A stretch of 49,500 nucleotides of DNA from an uncultured virus (IMG/VR IMGVR_UViG_3300028591_000091). Its lineage: Duplodnaviria > Heunggongvirae > Uroviricota > Caudoviricetes. The stretch lies in IMG/VR virus record IMGVR_UViG_3300028591_000091; one strand, 5' to 3'. The position numbers were made by a program, and so were the translations under genes. Below are positions 29,960-49,500 of the stretch, piece by piece. The notes under the pieces were generated by a model that was not told the DNA's origin, did no database searches, and worked only from the letters and a program-made list of their open reading frames with translations. Within the stretch, counting starts at the first letter, position 1, and every line of letters begins with the position of its first letter.

Positions 29960-30062
29960 GGATTATTGCGGTGAGGAGTCGGATAATCTCAAGGAAAGGG
30001 AAAGAAGGAATATATGACTGAGTGCACAGAGGTTTCATATATTGTTCCCTTTCAAATTTTTT
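29934..30062 (+). ncRNA. candidate small RNA (three hairpins between a promoter box and a T tract)
   Basis: CCTTAATAATG at 29923-29933; hairpins TAGAG/CTCTA, GGGATTAT/ATAATCTC and GAAAGGGAA..AATATATGA/TCATATATT..TTCCCTTTC; no ORF. Confidence 0.45.
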
Positions 30063-30227
30063 GCGCTGTTATAAGAAAAGCGGGGAAGATAAAAACGCAG
30101 GAAAAGAATTGTCGGAGACGAGAATAAACCTGCGTAATTTTATTTTGGCCTATCAAATAATTTCGGAACGAGGAGAATAAGTCAGGCCATTTTTCATATG
30201 TCTCCCGCTTAATAATTTCAACAGCGC
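30063..30227. repeat. branched inverted-repeat element (same architecture as 1065..1224)
   Basis: GCGCTGTT(30063)/AACAGCGC(30220); AAGCGGG(30078)/CCCGCTT(30204); ACGCAGG(30095)/CCTGCGT(30129); TGGCCT(30146)/AGGCCA(30184). Confidence 0.85.
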
Positions 30228-30246
30228 GGATAATCCTTATATATAA

Positions 30247-30465
30247 ATGAAAAAGAGAATAAGATATTGGGTAAATAGACTGGATAAACAATTTGTAATA
30301 AAAAATGATTCTATTTTTGGTCGTTATTCAATTATTTCTAATAAAAAATTTAAATTAAGGGATAAAAACCAGTTAATTTATAAACTGAAATTAATTGAAA
30401 TAACTGCTGATGAGTCTTTTTATCTTAGTAAGAAGATTTGGAAAGAGATTTTCATAGATGATTAA
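30247..30465 (+). CDS. small basic hypothetical protein
   Basis: ATG 1 nt after the CCTTATATATA box (30235-30245); SNKKFKL motif. Confidence 0.65.
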   Translation: MKKRIRYWVNRLDKQFVIKNDSIFGRYSIISNKKFKLRDKNQLIYKLKLIEITADESFYLSKKIWKEIFIDD

Positions 30466-30745
30466 GTTTTATAAGAGTAGAATCAGTTCTAGGAGGGTAT
30501 GTATATTAGAAATGGATAGAAAAACAGAAGTATATCGTCTTTCTTTTTATACAATAATACATAGTAATAAAAGGGTTAGAGCAGATTTATATTCAATACA
30601 AAAAAGATGTATACATGAAATCTCAATAATGGATGAAAAATATATAGATAATATAATTGGTGGGGGATCGGGATCTTTCATTTGGATTCAGGTCCCTAAA
30701 GGAGAATGCATCAACCCCAACAGTTATAGAAGATATGGACGTTAA
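30458..30745 (+). CDS. small basic hypothetical protein
   Basis: Coupled to the previous ORF; SNKRVR motif. Confidence 0.65.
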   Translation: MIKFYKSRISSRRVCILEMDRKTEVYRLSFYTIIHSNKRVRADLYSIQKRCIHEISIMDEKYIDNIIGGGSGSFIWIQVPKGECINPNSYRRYGR

Positions 30746-30859
30746 AAATAATATAAGAAAATTTTATTTAGAGTGGAAGGTTCAGGAAATAAACGAAATT
30801 ATAAGCTATGAAAAAGAGTTATCATAGAATTATAATTTAGGTAAAAAATCAATCCATTA

Positions 30860-31090
30860 TTGAACAAAATAATTTACAAAGGAAATAGACTCGTTGGATT
30901 TATTAATAATCTAGGAGTAGTTAGAATATACAGTGTTGGTGGGAATAAAAGAATAGGTCTTTATAAAAATCAACACCGATTATCCAGAAAACTAGAATTT
31001 GTTTCTGTTATATCTGAAAAGTCTTTAAAAGAAGCTGATTGGAAAGTTTTAGAAAGAGAACACGGATTTTTATATCTTAGAAATGAATAA
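30860..31090 (+). CDS. small basic hypothetical protein (paralog of 31083..31316)
   Basis: IIYKG.R.VG.I...GNKR...WKVLEREHGFL; TTG start. Confidence 0.65.
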   Translation: MNKIIYKGNRLVGFINNLGVVRIYSVGGNKRIGLYKNQHRLSRKLEFVSVISEKSLKEADWKVLEREHGFLYLRNE

Positions 31091-31316
31091 TATAAAATTA
31101 GATTCTATTATTTATGCTGGATTAAGAGATATTGGGGTTATAAAAACTTCAGAAGTATTAATATATAGAATAAACGGAAATAAAAGATTTAAATTTAATG
31201 TTCTTAGTCCTAGATTAAAATATATTACTTCAATTCCAAAGTATGTAGGATTAAATTGGAAAAAATTAGATAAGAATCATAAATTTTTGTCAAGTAAAAA
31301 CCTTATAAATAAATGA
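31083..31316 (+). CDS. small basic hypothetical protein (paralog of 30860..31090)
   Basis: IIYAG.R.IG.I...GNKR...WKKLDKNHKFL. Confidence 0.7.
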   Translation: MNNIKLDSIIYAGLRDIGVIKTSEVLIYRINGNKRFKFNVLSPRLKYITSIPKYVGLNWKKLDKNHKFLSSKNLINK

Positions 31317-31603
31317 TAGATTTAAATTTTAAGAGAGTCTTGTATAAGGCTAGAAATATTGTATATTACTACAGTATTGACACACGTCCAAGATCTGTTT
31401 ATCTTCACGTAATAAGAGAGATGAGAAATGAAATGAAAGCTTTATTATCTGAATATGATAGTGAATCTGAACAATATAAAACTCTTCTTTCTATAATACG
31501 TGAATGTCCTCAGAAGATAAAGGAGGATGAGGTAGAGGAATATGTGTTAGGGATTTTAAAACCAACCATAGAGAAATGGATAAAGAGTTGGAAGATAAGA
31601 TAA
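31313..31603 (+). CDS. hypothetical protein
   Basis: 96-aa ORF; ATG 1 nt after the CCTTATAAATA box (31301-31311). Confidence 0.7.
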   Translation: MIDLNFKRVLYKARNIVYYYSIDTRPRSVYLHVIREMRNEMKALLSEYDSESEQYKTLLSIIRECPQKIKEDEVEEYVLGILKPTIEKWIKSWKIR

Positions 31604-31851
31604 AGAAGAATTGGTATGGTATTAACTTCAATCCTATTCTTGATGCTCATGAAGATAGGCGAAAAGCATTAGAGTTTCTTCGTGATAGAATCTTTGCTCT
31701 TGTTTGGTGGTATAATGAGTGTTTATGCGATGATCACCCAGCAAGACAGAGAAAGAATGAAGAGGAAATGAAGCAAATATCTGAAGAGTTATGCTGGCGA
31801 TTTCAAGATTATGAAGCTTTATGTACGATTTTCAAAAAGATTGGGACTTAA
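31576..31851 (+). CDS. hypothetical protein
   Basis: 91-aa ORF. Confidence 0.7.
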   Translation: MDKELEDKIKKNWYGINFNPILDAHEDRRKALEFLRDRIFALVWWYNECLCDDHPARQRKNEEEMKQISEELCWRFQDYEALCTIFKKIGT

Positions 31852-31881
31852 ATTACCAGGATTACGGCTTGGACAAAATAT

Positions 31882-43294: not shown

Positions 43295-44551
43295 ATGAGT
43301 GAAAATATTAGAGTAATTAAGAGAGATGGCAGAAAAACTAATTTCTCTGCAGAAAAAATGAAGTCTAGTATCTATCATGCAATGGAGAGAACCGATGTTG
43401 GTATTGATAGTAAAATAGCTTCAGGAATTGTTGATAAATTTCAAGAAAAAAATTCAGGAGAGATTTCAGTAGAGGTAATTCAAAACTTTATTGAAAATGA
43501 ATTGATGAAGTCTAAGTGCAAAGATGCTGCTAGAGAATTTATCAAAAACCGCCATGATAGAGATGTTGCTCGCGAAGCCAAAACAAAGGACATCTTTATG
43601 AGTATTGTTAATACTGTTAATAATGATGTCACCAGAGAAAACGCTAACATGAACAGCGACTCACCTGCTGGGATGATGATGAAGTTTGCATCAGAGACAA
43701 CTAAACCATTTGTAGATAATTATCTTTTATCGGATGAGGTAAGAGACGCAATAAAGTCGAATTATCTCCACGTCCATGACAAGGATTACTATCCTACAAA
43801 ATCTCTGACATGCCTTCAGCACCCTCTTGATAAAATACTTAGCGGTGGATTTAAGGCTGGTCATGGTGAAGCTAGAGGTGCTAAAAGAATTGAGACTGCT
43901 TCTATTCTTTCTGCTATTAGTATGGAAACTGTACAGAATGAACAGCATGGCGGTCAGGGAATTCCAGCATTTGATTTTTATCTAGCTCCGTATGTTCGTT
44001 TAACTTATATTGAAGAGCTTGAAAATTCTTTTGAATTGTTAGGCTTGGAGCTCACTGATGAAATTAGGAATGAAAATTTAAAAGATTATATAAAGAAAGA
44101 CATATCTAGTATTTCTGACCCAATTGAAAAAGCAAAACAATCTGCAATGAATAAAACGGTTTCACGCGTTCATCAATCAATGGAGTCGTTTGTACACAAT
44201 ATGAACTCAATCCATAGTAGAGGAGGAAACCAGGTTGTATTTAGTTCAATTAATTACGGAACAGATACTAGTGCTGAGGGTCGTTGTGTTATGAGAGAGC
44301 TTCTTTTATCCACAGATCGAGGTGTTGGAAATGGTGCTACAGCAATTTTCCCAATCCAGATTTGGAAACTTAAGAAAGGAGTGTCTTATCTTCCTGGTGA
44401 TCCTAACTATGATCTTTATGAATTAGCATGTAAAGTAAGTGCAAGAAGATTTTTCCCAAATTTCTTAAACTTAGATGCTACATTTAATGTAGATAAAGAT
44501 TGGAGAGAAGATGATCCTAAACGTTACGAACATGAAGTAGCAACCATGGGT
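43295..44551 (+). CDS. nrdD: anaerobic (class III) ribonucleoside-triphosphate reductase, exon 1
   Basis: ATP-cone VIKRDG, RENAN, HVHDKD, SLTCLQ, QNEQHGGQ, SRGGNQVVFSSIN, IFPI, RFFPNF; ends at ATMG. Confidence 0.95.
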
Positions 44552-45385
44552 AAGTGTAAACTACAGCTCATGTAAAATCTCTTGAACCGTGCTAACGGGT
44601 GTGCTCAGAAATGAGTGCTAATGGTTAGGCCCTAAAAAATAACCAGGGTGAGACCATGCTAAGCATCTTTAAGATATTCACATTAATTGAAATTTAAATT
44701 ATTATGTGGATATATAAAATAACTAATAAATTAAATGGGAAATCTTATATAGGTCAAACAAAAAGGCCAATAGAACAAAGATGGAGACGTCATGTTAATG
44801 ATGCAATGAATAATATATTAGATACCCATTTCGCTAGAGCCATAAGAAAATATGGTGAAAAATACTTTTCTGTAGAAGAGGTATGTAGTTCTGATTCACA
44901 AGATGAATTAAATCAGTTAGAACACTATTATATTCATAAATATAATTGTTTAGAAAATGAATATAATGAAACTGATTCAGTTTATAGGTGTGGTGGAAAT
45001 ACATATAATTCTAAAACAGAAGAAGAATTAAATATAATTAAGGATAAAATTCGTCAAACAAAATTAGGCGGATTAAATCCCAATTCAAAATCAATAAAAT
45101 TAATAGATAAGATAACAGGTGATGAATTAGTATTTTCATCTGTTAAAGAATGTTCTAATTATTTAGGACTTTCAACTCACCACCCAGTATCAAAAAGATT
45201 GACTGGGAATGTGAAAAAATTATTAAATGATAGATATGATTTTGAATATCTTAAGGATGAAAGTTTATCGACTATTGGTGATGAATGTAGCCAAGTAGGA
45301 GAGGAGATAAGCACCTCTTCGAAGCAGGAGACTCCTGAAAGGGAGAAGATATAGTCAGTGCCCTAGGTAACTAGGGATTAACATG
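44552..45385 (+). mobile_element. group I intron (IA-like) in nrdD carrying a GIY-YIG ORF
   Basis: P1 CATGGGT/GCTCATG with U-G at the splice site; P10 CTACA/TGTAG; stem CATCTTTAAGATATTC/GAATATCTTAAGGATG brackets the ORF; R ATCGACTA; S AAGATATAGTC; P9 CCCTAG/CTAGGG; terminal G. Splicing restores MG|CRT. Confidence 0.95.
44704..45354 (+). CDS. intron-encoded GIY-YIG homing endonuclease
   Basis: WIYKITN...SYIGQT...RWRRH...LEHYYI...YN; NUMOD1-like C-terminal FSSVKECSNYLG; the ORF end overlaps the ribozyme core. Confidence 0.92.
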   Translation: MWIYKITNKLNGKSYIGQTKRPIEQRWRRHVNDAMNNILDTHFARAIRKYGEKYFSVEEVCSSDSQDELNQLEHYYIHKYNCLENEYNETDSVYRCGGNTYNSKTEEELNIIKDKIRQTKLGGLNPNSKSIKLIDKITGDELVFSSVKECSNYLGLSTHHPVSKRLTGNVKKLLNDRYDFEYLKDESLSTIGDECSQVGEEISTSSKQETPEREKI

Positions 45386-46417
45386 TGTAGAACTAGAGTA
45401 TTTGATAATAGATTTGGTCCTAGAACTTCAGTAGGACGAGGAAACCTTAGCTTTACTACAATTAACTTTGTTAAAATTGCTATTGAAGTTTCTATTGAGG
45501 ATGGATATATCTATCTTGACCCTAGAGACAAAGAATATAAAGTAGATATTACAAGAGCTACTCCTGAACTTAATGAGAAACGACTTAATAGATTTAAGGA
45601 AAAACTTTCAGAGATTACAGGTTTAGCAGCAAAACAGCTTGATGAGAGATATCAATTTCAAAAGACCGCATTAAAAAAGCAGTTCCCACTTCTTATGAGT
45701 GGACTTTGGCTTGGTTCAGATGAATTAGGTCCAGAAGATCAGCTTGGAGATGTAATTAATCAGGGAACATTAGGCATTGGATTTATTGGACTTGCAGAAG
45801 CTCTAGTGGCTTTAACCGGCCATCATCACGGAGAGGATTCAAAATGCCAGGAATATGGATTAAGTATTATTCAGCAGATGTTTGAAGATTCTAAAAAATA
45901 TTCAGAACAGTATAAGCACAATTATTCAATTTTAGCAACTCCGGCTGAGGGATTAGCTGGTAAGTTTACAAAGGTTGATCAGAAGACATATGGAAAAATT
46001 CCCGGCATTACGGAGTTCATGTTCTATACTAACTCAAATCATGTCCCTGTATACTATCCATGTTCTGCTGCTCATAAAGCTGAGATTGAAGGTCCATATC
46101 ATAAATTGACTTTGGGAGGTCATATATTCTATGTGGAAGTAGACGGCGATGCAACAAAAAATCCGGAGTCAATTATGGATATTGTTGATCTAGCTTATAA
46201 AAATAATGTTGGATATCTTTCTGTGAACCATTTCCAGACACGATGTCCAAATTGTAATTATGAGTCGAATGAAGACAATGATGGTGGAATTTGTCCTGTA
46301 TGTGGAGAGCATCTTACTGTTTTACAAAGAATTACGGGCTACCTAGTTGGAACTACAGATCGATGGAACGCTGGAAAGCTGGATGAGCTGAAGCATAGAG
46401 TACAACATACACTATAA
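45386..46417 (+). CDS. nrdD: anaerobic ribonucleoside-triphosphate reductase, exon 2
   Basis: CRT, GRGNLSFTTIN, ATPAEG, YTNS, CPNC...CPVCG and glycyl-radical motif RITGYL. Confidence 0.95.
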   Translation, partial: CRTRVFDNRFGPRTSVGRGNLSFTTINFVKIAIEVSIEDGYIYLDPRDKEYKVDITRATPELNEKRLNRFKEKLSEITGLAAKQLDERYQFQKTALKKQFPLLMSGLWLGSDELGPEDQLGDVINQGTLGIGFIGLAEALVALTGHHHGEDSKCQEYGLSIIQQMFEDSKKYSEQYKHNYSILATPAEGLAGKFTKVDQKTYGKIPGITEFMFYTNSNHVPVYYPCSAAHKAEIEGPYHKLTLGGHIFYVEVDGDATKNPESIMDIVDLAYKNNVGYLSVNHFQTRCPNCNYESNEDNDGGICPVCGEHLTVLQRITGYLVGTTDRWNAGKLDELKHRVQHTL

Positions 46418-46981: not shown

Positions 46982-48742
46982 ATGCCTAGTAAGAAATGGA
47001 CACAAGAAACTTGTAGAGAGGCTGCCCAAAAATTCTACAAGTTAAAAGATTTTAGGGAAAATTACCCAGGGGCATACAGTGCTGCAGTAAAAAATAATTG
47101 GATTAAAGATTACACATGGCTATCCATAGGAAAGAATGCCGGTTATTGGGATTATGAACACTGTTTAGAAGAAGCAAAGAAGTATAAAACGAAGACCGAG
47201 TTTGAAAAAGGAGCCCCGAGTGCTTGTTTCAGAGCAAGAAAAGAGGGGTGGGTTGAGGATTATACCTGGTTTGAAGACGGAAGACAGATCGAATCTAAAA
47301 AACGAAGGAAGTGGAATTATGACTCTTGTTATAAATTAGCAAAAAGTTGTAATAAGAGGTCTGAGCTAAGAGAGAAAAGTGACGCTGCATATAGAGTTGC
47401 TTTAAAAAACAATTGGATTAAGGATTATACTTGGTTTCTTTCAGATGAAGAAGTAAGACATCAAAAAAGACCATCTGCTGTTAAATGGCCTTATGAAAAA
47501 TGTAAAGAGATAGCACTGACCTGTAAAACAGCTAAAGAATTTAGAGAAAAATCTTCAAACAGTGCTTATACTATCGCAAAAAGGAGTGGATGGCTAGATG
47601 AATTTGATTGGCTTATTAGATCTGAAATTCCATTTATAGATAAAATGGATAATGTATATGCATATATATTTGAGGATCTTAATTCAGTATATGTGGGTAG
47701 AACTATTGATCCAAAAAGTAGAGATGTGGAACACAGAGGTAGCGATAAAAGCGCTGTATATAGGTTTGCTTCAAATAATAAAGTAGAAGTCCCTAAAATG
47801 ACAATTCTTGAAACAGGATTAACTTTATTAGAAGGCCTTAAACAAGAAGATTATTATAGGAATAAGTATGAACTAGAAGGATGGAAAATCCTTAATATAG
47901 CAAAAACTGGGGTGAAGAGTGGTTCTCTTGGATGTCTCAGAAGAAAATGGACAAAAGGAGAGTGTTATAAAGAGGCCAAGAAATATAGCACTCTAAAAGA
48001 CTTTCGAAAAAATTCTCCATCTGCTTATAATGTATCTTTAAAAAATAAATGGAATAAAGAATATACTTGGTTGATTTCTAATACTAAACCGAATTATTGG
48101 GACTATGAACATTGTTTCGAGGAAGCCAAAAAATATAAAACTAGAAGACAATTTCAGGATGGAAACCATTCTGCCTATGATAGTGCGCTAAAACATAAAT
48201 GGTTAAATGATTATACTTGGTTTGATCCGCCAAAATTTGTTCCTTTAAGTTACGAAGATTGTTATGAATTGGCCAAGAAATACACTAAACTTTCAGATTT
48301 TATAAAAAATTGTGGAGGGGCTTATAATAAGGCAAGAGAGAAAAGGTGGATTGTTGATTATGTTTGGCTCGAAAAGACAGATATATCACAAAAACCTGTC
48401 CTGCAGTATTCTCTTAGTGGAACTTTTATAAAAAGATATAAGGGTGTAAGGGAAGCCTGCAGAGAAAATAATTTCAGTACAAATTCTGGAATGTCTGAGT
48501 GCTGTATAGGGAAACTTAGATTTCATAAAGGATATATTTGGTGTTATGAGGGGGATGAAGATACTGTAAATGAGAGAGTAAAGACCTTTGTATTTAAGTA
48601 TGATAGTAAATATTCTCTTATAGAAGTCATTCCTAAGAAAATATCTCATATCACGAAATATATAGACACAGGTAAACTTGCTCCGGATGGTCATTATTAC
48701 TATCATGGCCCACACGAGTTTACTGACAACGAACAAAAATAA
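46982..48742 (+). CDS. free-standing GIY-YIG endonuclease with seven ~44-aa tandem repeats and a NUMOD1-like C-terminal domain
   Basis: Central NVYAYIF..VYVGRT....RDVEH...E....LNIA; repeats W.YE.C.EEAKKY....F......AY..A.K..W..DYTW; KPVLQYSLSGTFIKRYKGVREA. Confidence 0.85.
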   Translation: MPSKKWTQETCREAAQKFYKLKDFRENYPGAYSAAVKNNWIKDYTWLSIGKNAGYWDYEHCLEEAKKYKTKTEFEKGAPSACFRARKEGWVEDYTWFEDGRQIESKKRRKWNYDSCYKLAKSCNKRSELREKSDAAYRVALKNNWIKDYTWFLSDEEVRHQKRPSAVKWPYEKCKEIALTCKTAKEFREKSSNSAYTIAKRSGWLDEFDWLIRSEIPFIDKMDNVYAYIFEDLNSVYVGRTIDPKSRDVEHRGSDKSAVYRFASNNKVEVPKMTILETGLTLLEGLKQEDYYRNKYELEGWKILNIAKTGVKSGSLGCLRRKWTKGECYKEAKKYSTLKDFRKNSPSAYNVSLKNKWNKEYTWLISNTKPNYWDYEHCFEEAKKYKTRRQFQDGNHSAYDSALKHKWLNDYTWFDPPKFVPLSYEDCYELAKKYTKLSDFIKNCGGAYNKAREKRWIVDYVWLEKTDISQKPVLQYSLSGTFIKRYKGVREACRENNFSTNSGMSECCIGKLRFHKGYIWCYEGDEDTVNERVKTFVFKYDSKYSLIEVIPKKISHITKYIDTGKLAPDGHYYYHGPHEFTDNEQK

Positions 48743-48772
48743 AAACATCAAAGTACTGCTAATACCTTGGTG
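48742..48772 (-). terminator. intrinsic terminator on the minus strand
   Basis: Minus strand CACCAAGGTATT-AGC-AGTACTTTGATG followed by TTTTT. Confidence 0.65.
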
Positions 48773-49425
48773 ACCTCTTTTAGTGAGGATTTCTTTAGTG
48801 GGATACTATACTTCACTCACTTAGGTAGTAATTAAACCTATCTTGGAAATCTAACTACCTTATTGCACAGATCTAAAATGTCTACTATGCTAGGATAACT
48901 ATACCTTTCGTCGCTCGGTATATTCTCCCTAAAGTTTCTCCTATAGTTTTTCATAATGATAAACATAAAAGAGGGTTTTGATTCGACTAGGAAATTCACT
49001 AGTCTATCCGGTTATCAAAATATGAGTCGGTACATTTTGTCTTGAAACCTGGAACCTTATTTTGCGGATAAAATTCCAGGACCACTTTTAATGTGGATTT
49101 CTTGGTTGGGTTACTTTCTTTACCCGTCCTTAGTTATTGGAAACTTAATGAAGTAGTCCAACAACTTTCTGGCACAATCCTAGAATTTCGACTGTGCTAG
49201 GGTGACTATACCTTTCGTGATCAGGTACGTTCACTCTGTAGTTTCTTTTGTAATACTTTTCCATTTTTGCTGGTGTATTCAAAAGTTAGTTCGACCAGGA
49301 AATTCACTGATCTATCCGGTTATTTTCCAAGCTCTGTGAAACCGGCACACTAAAAAGGGCTTGGTTTAAAGAATAAAAAACAGCTCTCCACACGTTAAAT
49401 GTAGAAAACTGTTAAAATGTTCTTT
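48745..49425 (-). ncRNA. large structured noncoding RNA candidate made of two homologous domains
   Basis: No ORF; promoter box at 49427-49437 and terminator at 48742-48772; two copies at a 307-308 nt period with identical blocks and covarying stems; G-U pairs favour the minus strand. Confidence 0.8.
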
Positions 49426-49426
49426 C

Positions 49427-49450
49427 TATTAATAAGGATTTTAGCGTTTT
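49427..49450 (-). promoter_or_regulatory. putative phage promoter driving the ncRNA
   Basis: Minus strand AAAACGCTAAAAT-CCTTATTAATAG, followed by a long 5' hairpin ACAGTTTTCTACA/TGTGGAGAGCTGT. Confidence 0.6.
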
Positions 49451-49500
49451 CTGGACGGAGAGAAAACTTTGATTTTAAACGGATAAAAAAATAATGATAT

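What the first reader, a model, noticed from the sequence alone, without database searches (positions are those of the whole stretch)
48745..49425. ORF-free ~680-nt transcription unit built from two covarying, highly structured RNA domains (candidate novel large phage ncRNA)
Seen: in an otherwise gene-dense genome this stretch has no ORF, yet on the minus strand it lies between the phage promoter box (49427-49437) and a terminator (48742-48772). It holds two diverged copies (about 48774-49015 and 49082-49323, period 307-308 nt). Identical blocks are TCTATCCGGTTAT, GGAAATTCACT, ACTATACCTTTCGT and GGATTTCTT. Between them, stems keep their pairing while the sequence changes (minus strand: GAUCAG/CUGGUC vs GACUAG/CUAGUC; CCAC/GUGG vs CCUC/GAGG; AGUUGUUGGA/UCCAAUAACU vs AGGUAGU/ACUACCU; GCACAG/UUGUGC vs GCAUAG/CUGUGC). 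G-U pairs work only on the minus strand. A hairpin loop GAAUUUC (49299-49305, identical at 48991-48997) is complementary to another loop GAAAUUC (49183-49189), suggesting a kissing-loop contact within or between domains. Inference: a selected, ornate RNA with tandem domains, possibly multimerising like GOLLD/ROOL-type RNAs, or acting as a ribozyme, scaffold or anti-defence decoy. I cannot match it to any family I recognise.
Basis: partly seen in the sequence, partly recalled or inferred. Interest (0 to 1): 0.9.

Follow-up and report, generated by a model that had tools for sequence, protein, structure and literature searches.

The report
Tandem structured RNAs carrying tiny genes
A large rumen phage carries two diverged copies of a ~300-nt, hairpin-rich minus-strand RNA that matches no known RNA family, but each copy holds a conserved 38-39-codon gene, so it is more likely a structured small-protein messenger (or dual-function RNA) than a pure non-coding RNA.

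Summary
The two ~308-nt copies, the identical blocks and the stems that keep pairing are real. Across 34 consensus pairs, both copies are 100% paired; 4 pairs changed on both sides and 6 changed on one side through G-U. A further hairpin, H2, folds in both copies with almost no shared sequence. The minus strand folds better than the plus strand. No Rfam family matches.

The stretch is not ORF-free. Each copy has an ATG ORF of 39 or 38 codons. Start and stop lie at homologous positions, and the copies differ by an in-frame 3-nt indel. There is a protein-level conservation signal (permutation P = 0.0004; 0.0019 given no new stop; the other five frames 0.095-0.95).

The proposed kissing loop is chance-level and absent from copy B. 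No relatives were found beyond ~95%-identical rumen variants and one 42-aa ORF call.

Best reading (0.5): two tandem cassettes, each a structured mRNA or dual-function RNA for a small basic peptide. A pure ncRNA remains possible (0.28). Transcription, translation and function are not shown.

The parts
49427..49437 (-). It belongs to a motif found 4 times in the window; its role here is uncertain.
   Evidence: 4 matches against 0.58 expected; the other three copies abut ATG starts; this one does not.
49369..49413 (-). T0: a 15-bp hairpin followed by a U run. It is an intrinsic-terminator-like site upstream of cassette A and probably ends an upstream minus-strand transcript.
   Evidence: the only terminator-like site found in 48000-49500. 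(z -4.34 for 49366-49500).
49081..49360 (-). Cassette A, a structured RNA. Helices: H0 49345-49316, H1 49312-49293, H2 49285-49245, H3 49234-49202, H4 49197-49172, H5 49166-49132, H6 49125-49108, H7 49096-49082. An optional closing helix pairs 49360-49346 with 49095-49081.
   Evidence: helix lists; consensus pairs.
49290..49323 (-). Most conserved block of copy A (91% identical to copy B): single-stranded AUAACCGGAUAGA followed by hairpin H1 with the invariant loop UGAAUUUC.
   Evidence: D2; helix 2: one pair changed on both sides, one on one side; -6.9 kcal/mol.
49145..49264 (-). ORF A, 39 codons plus stop (MEKYYKRNYRVNVPDHERYSHPSTVEILGLCQKVVGLLH). The AUG sits at the apex of H2 and the stop codon lies inside H5.
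49048..49080 (-). T1: a 13-bp hairpin between the cassettes (-15.8 kcal/mol, z -3.66) with a poor U tail. It may be a terminator, a processing site or a stabiliser.
   Evidence: (I6); in the X21 variant a different inverted repeat follows 49080.
48773..49037 (-). Cassette B, a structured RNA. Helices: H1 49004-48985, H2 48972-48937, H3 48929-48892, H4 48890-48865, H5 48860-48823, H6 about 48821-48796, H7 48788-48774.
48982..49015 (-). Most conserved block of copy B: AUAACCGGAUAGA followed by hairpin H1.
   Evidence: D2; -7.5 kcal/mol, z -3.36.
48838..48954 (-). ORF B, 38 codons plus stop (MKNYRRNFRENIPSDERYSYPSIVDILDLCNKVVRFPR). The AUG sits at the apex of H2.
   Evidence: A 42-aa variant, P0003, was called as a gene elsewhere.
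48730..48772 (-). T2: a weak A/U- and G-U-rich hairpin followed by UUUUUAUUUUU, oriented for the minus strand. It abuts the stop codon of the convergent GIY-YIG gene.
   Evidence: -8.1 kcal/mol, z -1.28; sequence; the ORF 46982-48742 ends here.

Best explanation
The stretch is a pair of old tandem duplicates of one cassette, read on the minus strand. Each cassette gives a ~300-nt RNA that folds into seven or eight hairpins and carries a 38-39-codon ORF for a basic peptide. The peptide has a K/R/Y/N-rich N-terminal part and a predicted amphipathic C-terminal helix. It is therefore a structured small-protein mRNA, possibly a dual-function RNA, and not an ORF-free ncRNA.

Shown: the duplication; the conserved hairpins with compensatory changes; the AUG at the A-rich apex of a hairpin (H2) kept in both copies although its sequence has turned over; the stop codon inside hairpin H5; the protein-level conservation signal in one frame only; and minus-strand-oriented hairpins between and after the cassettes.

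Inferred: the RNA is made and the peptide is translated. The invariant 5' element (AUAACCGGAUAGA plus the H1 hairpin with loop UGAAUUUC) is an operator for a trans-acting factor, perhaps the peptide itself, that sets stability, translation or read-through. The 3' hairpins H5-H7, T1 and T2 stabilise or end the RNA. The module behaves like a moron-type accessory cassette, because its flanks differ between strains. What the peptide does in the host is not known; by position and size, a host-takeover or anti-defence accessory role is a guess.
For: Coding.
- The ATG and the stop codon fall at homologous alignment positions, and the copies differ by an in-frame 3-nt indel.
- pN/pS is 0.33 in the ORF frame against 0.64-1.07 in the five other frames.
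- The BLOSUM62 score of the 34-codon core beats random placement of the same 35 substitutions at P = 0.0004. P is 0.0019 given no new stop, and 0.019 with positions fixed and target bases shuffled. The other frames give 0.66 and 0.48 and 0.26, 0.095 and 0.95.
- Start contexts (aaaATG, attATG) resemble those of the phage's other genes, which mostly lack a Shine-Dalgarno sequence.
- A gene caller called a 42-aa variant of ORF B on another contig (P0003).

Structure.
- In 34 consensus pairs all 68 cells are paired, with 4 double and 6 one-sided changes; slid controls give 25-38% paired.
- H2 folds at -8.9 and -8.8 kcal/mol (z -4.3 and -2.9) in both copies, and the AUG is at its apex in each.
- Whole-copy z-scores are -4.75 and -2.71.
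- In ~95% variants, 49154/49143 change A-U to G-C and 49122/49111 change U-A to C-G, with a U-G intermediate. By my reading, only 1 of 25 variant positions inside the two copies lies in a consensus helix, and that one turns U-G into C-G.
- The 14-nt identical block keeps its third-codon positions unchanged, which suggests RNA and peptide constraints overlap (sequences).

Module.
- Contigs of DNA run X3 leave the window's sequence at 48742 and at 49367 or 49443.
- Contigs of 3 of 3 laid RNA libraries cover parts of the module. One 756-nt contig from X2 bridges A, T1, B and T2. This shows presence only.
Against: - Only two paralogues and close variants exist, so both the coding test and the structure test rest on little independent change. 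The consensus structure was also derived from the same two sequences.
- Among the ~95% variants, amino-acid changes are as frequent as silent ones. ORF A has E2K, S20D (two adjacent bases in the most conserved block), G36E and L38P against one silent codon. ORF B has D15N, I23T and F36L against two silent changes. P0003 adds E16K and R35K.
- The ORFs are not poorer in variants than the rest of the copies: 13 of 25 variants fall in 43% of the length.
- The third-codon-position excess alone is not significant (10/8/17).
- The peptide profile found no relative among 1.84 billion representatives apart from P0003; the two other hits are tandem-repeat sequences. Pfam, PHROGs and the ESM Atlas gave nothing. 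The AlphaFold2 model is weak (mean pLDDT 66).
- No promoter was identified for either cassette, and the promoter box is followed by a strong terminator-like hairpin.
- Neither transcription nor translation is shown. RNA-library contigs may be carried-over DNA, and run X2 also holds the neighbouring endonuclease gene.
Confidence: 0.5

Rival explanations
1. Pure non-coding RNA. Two tandem ~300-nt structured domains act as RNA (scaffold, sponge, decoy or regulator). The short open frame is a by-product of sequence kept for structure.
For: - Conservation outside the ORF is as high as or higher than inside it: 5' block 91%, 3' block 81%, ORF core 67-72%.
- All 10 variable consensus pairs keep pairing.
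- H2, H5 and H6 keep hairpins while their sequence turns over.
- Population variants avoid consensus helices but do not avoid the ORF, and amino-acid-changing variants are frequent.
- There is no protein family and no distant peptide homologue.
- The minus strand folds better than the plus strand.
Against: - The coding signal is specific to one of six frames (P 0.0004 to 0.019 depending on the null).
- ATG and stop are at homologous positions and the indel is in frame.
- No Rfam family matches, and no homologue was found by the covariance model or nhmmer in 80 related loci and 5 whole viral records. Covariation beyond the two copies therefore cannot be tested.
- The proposed kissing loop is at chance level.
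Confidence: 0.28
2. Type I toxin-antitoxin-like modules. Each cassette would be a stable, tightly folded mRNA for a small toxic peptide, held in check by an antisense RNA and by 5'-3' pairing, and duplicated in tandem as many such loci are.
For: The ORFs are small and sit in a heavily folded RNA. The cassette is duplicated in tandem. Long-range 5'-3' helices are predicted: in copy A, 49360-49346 with 49095-49081 at probability about 1; in copy B, a weaker helix of probability under 0.55. That tandem duplication and mRNA locking are typical of such loci is recalled, not tested here.
Against: - The peptide has no hydrophobic stretch of membrane-spanning length. The predicted helix is about 15 residues and amphipathic, and carries D, N, K and R in copy B.
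- No antisense gene or plus-strand promoter-like site was seen within 48743-49500, although that scan does not cover Bacteroidota-type promoters.
- The closing helices differ between the copies.
Confidence: 0.07
3. A DNA-level element (origin, packaging or recombination site, or homing-endonuclease target). The inverted repeats would be protein-binding or cruciform sites, and neither an RNA nor a peptide matters.
For: The module lies at a convergent junction next to a free-standing GIY-YIG endonuclease gene. Its flanks are polymorphic between strains.
Against: Six G-U cells and a better minus-strand fold point to one strand. Stems keep pairing while their sequence changes, which sequence-specific protein sites would not do. 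There is a frame-specific coding signal. No other copy of the conserved blocks occurs in the window.
Confidence: 0.05

Closest known systems
Dual-function RNAs (for example SgrS/SgrT, RNAIII/delta-haemolysin, SR1/SR1P, Spot 42/SpfP). Reviews and papers PMC12612679, PMC7430163 and PMC8916003 were seen only as search listings with the start of the abstract; the examples are recalled.
   Same: A structured RNA of a few hundred nucleotides also carries a very small ORF (SR1P is 39 aa, recalled). Here both the RNA structure and the peptide appear to be constrained.
   Different: There is no sequence or family relationship. No base-pairing target is known. The RNA is phage-encoded, duplicated in tandem and far more hairpin-rich. 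Neither translation nor regulatory activity is shown.
Phage morons (promoter-gene-terminator accessory cassettes between operons; recalled concept)
   Same: The module is discrete, about 630-700 bp, lies at a convergent gene junction, ends in hairpins, has flanks that differ between strains and holds very small accessory ORFs.
   Different: No promoter was identified. The conserved structured untranslated parts are longer than the ORF itself, which ordinary morons do not show.
Lambda N / nut processive antitermination (recalled)
   Same: The layout is similar: a conserved single-stranded box plus a hairpin with an invariant loop near the 5' end, then a gene for a small basic protein, then terminator-like hairpins.
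   Different: There is no homology to N (no Pfam hit). The peptide is 38-39 aa with only 4 basic residues in its N-terminal part. No gene lies downstream to read into, only the antisense of the endonuclease gene. Nothing was tested.
GOLLD / ROOL and other large ornate RNAs of phages and prophages (Rfam)
   Same: Phage-borne, large, multi-hairpin and of unknown function.
   Different: No match to any of 4227 Rfam models at gathering score, and only four weak matches, all with E of 2 or more, on this stretch. It contains a conserved ORF. The proposed multimerising loop contact is at chance level.
Type I toxin-antitoxin loci (hok/sok, ldr/rdl, AapA/IsoA; recalled)
   Same: Small ORFs in tightly folded mRNAs, often repeated in tandem.
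   Different: The peptide is not hydrophobic enough for a membrane toxin, and no antisense RNA is evident.

Membership tests
Any Rfam family, including GOLLD, ROOL, group I intron, riboswitches and ribozymes | Match to the family's covariance model at its gathering score | tested here: not met
   0 matches in the whole window at gathering score; on 48600-49500 only 4 matches, all with E of 2.1 or more and scores of 15-22 bits against cut-offs of 47-56.
GOLLD/ROOL-type multimerising RNA | Conserved loop-loop (kissing) contacts between domains or molecules | tested here: not met
   GAAAUUC occurs only in copy A. There are 29 complementary 7-mer pairs in the stretch against 29.3 in shuffles. Multimerisation itself cannot be tested with these tools.
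Dual-function RNA | Small ORF under protein-level selection | tested here: met
   pN/pS 0.33; P = 0.0004, 0.0019 and 0.019 under three nulls; five control frames not significant. The test rests on two paralogues only.
Dual-function RNA | Conserved RNA secondary structure beyond what an mRNA needs | tested here: met
   34 pairs, 4 double and 6 single changes, none broken; H2; z -4.75 and -2.71.
Dual-function RNA | The peptide is translated and the RNA regulates targets by base pairing | not testable with these tools
   No ribosome profiling, proteomics or target data. RNA-library contigs show presence only.
Type I toxin-antitoxin | Small hydrophobic, membrane-spanning toxin peptide | tested here: not met
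   sequences; helix at residues 24-38, amphipathic; basic and disordered N-terminal part.
Type I toxin-antitoxin | Overlapping antisense RNA gene | tested here: inconclusive
   One search found no plus-strand sigma-70-like promoter within 48743-49500, but that scan does not cover the likely host's promoter type.
Lambda N / nut antitermination | Homology of the protein to N, or an arginine-rich motif | tested here: not met
   no Pfam family; 4 K/R in the first 10 residues, which is not an arginine-rich motif in the strict sense.
Lambda N / nut antitermination | Conserved box plus hairpin upstream, and terminators downstream that are read through | tested here: inconclusive
   The box plus H1 is conserved and T1 and T2 are present. 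Read-through cannot be tested.
Diversity-generating retroelement (template and variable repeat) | Differences between the two repeats confined to adenines of one copy | tested here: not met
   of the 35 core differences, 11 start from A, 11 from C, 8 from T and 5 from G.
Phage moron | Discrete cassette with its own promoter and terminator, with variable presence or flanks | tested here: inconclusive
   Flanks vary and a weak minus-strand terminator, T2, is present. No promoter was identified.

The most novel reading that the evidence does not exclude
Each cassette is a self-contained RNA-peptide device of a kind not yet described. The ornate ~300-nt RNA would be a functional product in its own right (scaffold, sponge or decoy). 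The basic peptide it encodes would bind the invariant 5' operator (AUAACCGGAUAGA plus the H1 loop UGAAUUUC) of both copies. The outcome would be either a small ribonucleoprotein or control of read-through at the T1 and T2 hairpins, in the manner of N/nut. On this reading the two paralogues are kept because they act together.
Probability: 0.12. Interest if true: 0.75.

Novelty: new variant of a known kind. Interest (0 to 1): 0.45.

Why it matters
If confirmed, this would be a clear phage example of an RNA on which structural and peptide-coding constraints overlap along the same ~120 nt. The start codon is presented at the tip of a conserved hairpin, in a lineage whose genes mostly lack Shine-Dalgarno sequences. 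It would add to the few known dual-function RNAs and give a handle on translation control and small-protein biology in rumen phages, probably of Bacteroidota. It also illustrates a practical point: 'ORF-free structured RNA' calls in AT-rich phage DNA should be checked for very small conserved frames.

Tried and rejected
Known RNA families
- Rfam gave nothing useful. The only match near the stretch was a PyrR-site match at 49373-49485 with E = 2.1, far below its cut-off. No tRNA or tmRNA was found.

Searches for relatives
- blastn against GenBank phages: no match.
- Exact or degenerate DNA patterns in IMG/VR: 0 hits. Two further hits lack the hairpin and are chance matches.
- JGI metagenome contigs: 1 hit inside a long ORF of a high-GC contig, a chance match.
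- GTDB genome contigs: 1 hit in a Runella MAG, which the covariance model did not confirm.
- nhmmer on 81 loci: only the window's two copies.
- Covariance model R1 on the window plus 80 NrdG-linked IMG/VR loci, on 5 whole viral records and on three other loci: only the two copies, with the best other hit at E 0.076.
- Peptide profile against 1.84 billion representatives: only P0003 plus two tandem-repeat hits.
- Word search with P0003: found only itself. tblastn against phages: none.
- Back-translated peptide patterns in IMG/VR: one chance hit in the 3' end of a 128-aa ORF just upstream of a 737-aa ORF.
- Peptide profile on the window's six frames: only the two ORFs.
- Pfam, PHROGs and the ESM Atlas: nothing for the peptides.
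- Earlier-findings look-ups: nothing.
- The listing of cluster members could not be run.

Ideas rejected
- Kissing loop: chance level.
- DGR template/variable repeat: wrong substitution spectrum.
- A longer ORF through H1: the frames differ between the copies.
- Plus-strand ORFs: not conserved between the copies.
- The conserved 5' block as a repeated phage promoter: no other copy in the window.

Reads
- Contig cover cannot show transcription, strand, ends or level.
- The RNA contig end at 49367 coincides with a point where DNA variants also diverge, so it is not read as a 5' end.

Peptide model
- The AlphaFold2 model has low confidence and was not taken to a fold search.

Full report
CONTEXT
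The window belongs to a large, AT-rich (32% GC) phage. It encodes a GroEL-like chaperonin, type II topoisomerase subunits, a ligase-like protein, and NrdD and NrdG. It is only distantly related to phages in GenBank. The best GroEL match is 40% identity, to Bacteroides phages SJC03 and DAC16-23. The topoisomerase matches at 29% or less. No whole genome is held for the window. Most genes lack a Shine-Dalgarno sequence and start in A/T-rich contexts. Near-identical DNA is held by public runs labelled sheep, bovine and goat gut. Four of these were laid, and all four hold the module. A Bacteroidota host is an inference from these points, not a result.

THE OBSERVATION
The repeat is real. Three blocks recur with a spacing of 307-308 nt: 34 nt at 91% identity, 36 nt at 81% and 90 nt at 72% (alignments). 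Only these two copies exist in the window.

On the minus strand the copies fold with z = -4.75 (A) and -2.71 (B). On the plus strand the values are -2.75 and -2.23. A consensus of 34 base pairs in six helices is fully paired in both copies. Four pairs changed on both sides and six on one side through G-U, and none is broken. When the 3' partners are slid by 1-3 columns, only 25-38% of cells pair. Six cells are G-U, which fits the minus strand only. This consensus was derived from the same two sequences, so the comparison is biased in its favour.

A further hairpin, H2 (A 49285-49245, B 48972-48937), lies in the part where the copies share almost no sequence. It still folds in both, at -8.9 and -8.8 kcal/mol with z -4.3 and -2.9. 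H5 and H6 likewise keep a hairpin while their sequence changes.

POPULATION VARIANTS
Contigs of runs X21 (an RNA library) and X3 (DNA) carry ~95% variants. Laid on the predicted folds, the variants behave as follows.
- Two pairs change on both sides: 49154/49143 go from A-U to G-C, and 49122/49111 go from U-A to C-G, with a U-G intermediate in X21.
- Three changes are wobble-compatible: 48887 and 49056 strengthen their pairs, and 49108 weakens G-C to G-U.
- Seven changes break a predicted pair. None of these lies in a consensus helix: they fall in apical or terminal pairs, in H6 (49125, in X21) or in the T1 stem (49068).
- Of the 25 variant positions inside the two copies, only one (48887, U-G to C-G) lies in a consensus helix, where about six would be expected by length. 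This is my count.

The stretch is not ORF-free. One search lists minus-strand ORFs in both copies. From ATG they are 39 codons (49264-49145) and 38 codons (48954-48838). The evidence that they are homologous and under protein-level constraint is as follows.
- The ATGs and the stop codons lie at homologous positions, and the copies differ there by an in-frame 3-nt indel. The peptides are 58% identical.
- By the Nei-Gojobori method, pS = 0.68-0.71 and pN = 0.23, a ratio of 0.33. The five other frames give 0.64-1.07.
- A permutation test placed the same 35 substitutions at random in the 105-nt core. The observed BLOSUM62 score is reached in 0.04% of trials in the ORF frame, against 66% and 48% in the other two frames.
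- Conditioned on no new stop, P = 0.0019. With the positions fixed and the target bases shuffled, P = 0.019. The reverse frames give 0.26, 0.095 and 0.95.
- The third-position excess alone (10/8/17) is not significant.

In both copies the AUG sits at the A-rich apex of H2, and the stop codon lies inside H5. A gene caller called a 42-aa variant of ORF B on another contig (P0003).

EVIDENCE AGAINST A PEPTIDE UNDER STRONG SELECTION
Close variants change amino acids about as often as they are silent. ORF A has E2K, S20D, G36E and L38P; ORF B has D15N, I23T and F36L; P0003 adds E16K and R35K. The ORFs are not poorer in variants than the flanks. No family or distant homologue exists. The AlphaFold2 model is weak (pLDDT 66) and shows only a C-terminal helix at residues 24-38 after a basic, unstructured N-terminal part.

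OTHER CLAIMS
- Kissing loop. The motifs GAAUUUC and GAAAUUC are at the stated coordinates. GAAAUUC is absent from copy B, and 7-mer complementarity in the stretch equals the shuffled expectation (29 against 29.3).
- Promoter box. The motif CCTTATWWATA is enriched (4 against 0.58). The other three copies abut ATG starts. The copy at 49437-49427 is followed 12 nt later by a 15-bp hairpin with a U run, T0. T0 more likely ends an upstream transcript.
- T1. A strong hairpin, T1 (49080-49048; -15.8 kcal/mol, z -3.66), separates the copies.
- T2.
- Transcription. Whether there is one ~680-nt RNA or two ~300-nt RNAs is open.
- Read evidence. Contigs from 3 of 3 laid RNA libraries lie on the module. 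One 756-nt contig from X2 bridges A, T1, B and T2. This shows presence only, and X2 also holds the neighbouring endonuclease gene.
- Flanks. X3 DNA contigs depart from the window at 48742 and at 49367 or 49443, so the module sits in different flanks in other strains. The 586-aa GIY-YIG gene appears to be absent there.

INTERPRETATION
- Best reading (0.5): two tandem cassettes, each a heavily structured RNA that carries a small basic peptide gene. That makes it a structured small-protein mRNA or a dual-function RNA. It has an invariant 5' operator-like element (AUAACCGGAUAGA plus H1) and 3' hairpins.
- Pure ncRNA: 0.28.
- Type I toxin-antitoxin-like: 0.07. The peptide is not hydrophobic.
- DNA-level element: 0.05.
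- The remainder is left unassigned.

Nothing links the stretch to GOLLD, ROOL, ribozymes or riboswitches. The repeat differences come from all four bases, so it is not a DGR template/variable pair.

NOVELTY
No family, RNA or protein, matches, and the lineage is known only from ruminant gut assemblies. The kind, a small accessory gene on a structured or dual-function RNA, is known. The overlap of eight conserved hairpins with a conserved 38-39-codon frame, in tandem, is an unusual variant. I searched the paper library twice and saw only listings and the starts of abstracts. Nothing in them describes this element. That is not proof that it is unpublished.

Noticed in passing
window 43295-46417 (+): NrdD is in two ORFs: 43295-44575 (Pfam NRDD positions 1-268 plus an ATP-cone) and 45383-46417 (positions 264-562). 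A 216-aa GIY-YIG-type homing endonuclease ORF (44704-45354) lies between them. No group I intron was detected by Rfam, even at E up to 1. This is either a gene in pieces or an unrecognised intron.
   Followed up: partly
window 18357, 30235, 31301 (+); 25293, 13541, 18328, 18191 (-); 28843 (+): The motif CCTTATATAT(A/G), or CCTTATATTTG, recurs in intergenic DNA, usually 0-4 nt before an ATG or GTG. CCTTATWWATA occurs 4 times where 0.58 is expected. It resembles the Bacteroidota -7 promoter box TAnnTTTG (recalled) and would imply leaderless or near-leaderless mRNAs.
   Followed up: partly
window 46982-48742 (+): A 586-aa free-standing GIY-YIG endonuclease carries repeated W-x-x-D/E-Y-T-W modules. 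Its best relatives are in huge uncultured phages and Vibrio jumbo phages at about 30% identity. DNA contigs of run X3 leave the window exactly at its stop codon (48742), so the gene appears to be a presence/absence polymorphism.
   Followed up: partly
window 49366-49500 (-): Upstream of T0 there is a second hairpin (49467-49446). There is also an alternative pairing of 49452-49439 with 49416-49403 that overlaps the 5' arm of T0, which looks like an antiterminator/terminator pair. Rfam gives only a weak PyrR-site match there (E 2.1). The window ends at 49500, so this could not be resolved.
   Followed up: no
window 49080 (variant in run X21): In the X21 contig the sequence just downstream of H7 of copy A is replaced by an unrelated stretch that begins with its own 7-bp inverted repeat (CGAGATA ... 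TATCTCG). A hairpin at this place may therefore be kept while its sequence is replaced (table 7).
   Followed up: no
window 29960-31881: A 1.9-kb stretch has no ORF of 100 aa or more, but holds two copies of the CCTTATA(T/A)ATA motif directly before ATGs (30235, 31301). It probably contains several small genes.
   Followed up: no
window 49299-49303 / 49094-49098 and 48991-48995 / 48786-48790 (-): AUUUC in the invariant H1 loop is complementary to GAAAU in the invariant block AAGAAAUCC just before H7, in both copies. This could be a 5-bp tertiary or pseudoknot contact that closes each domain. It is too short and too invariant to test here.
   Followed up: no
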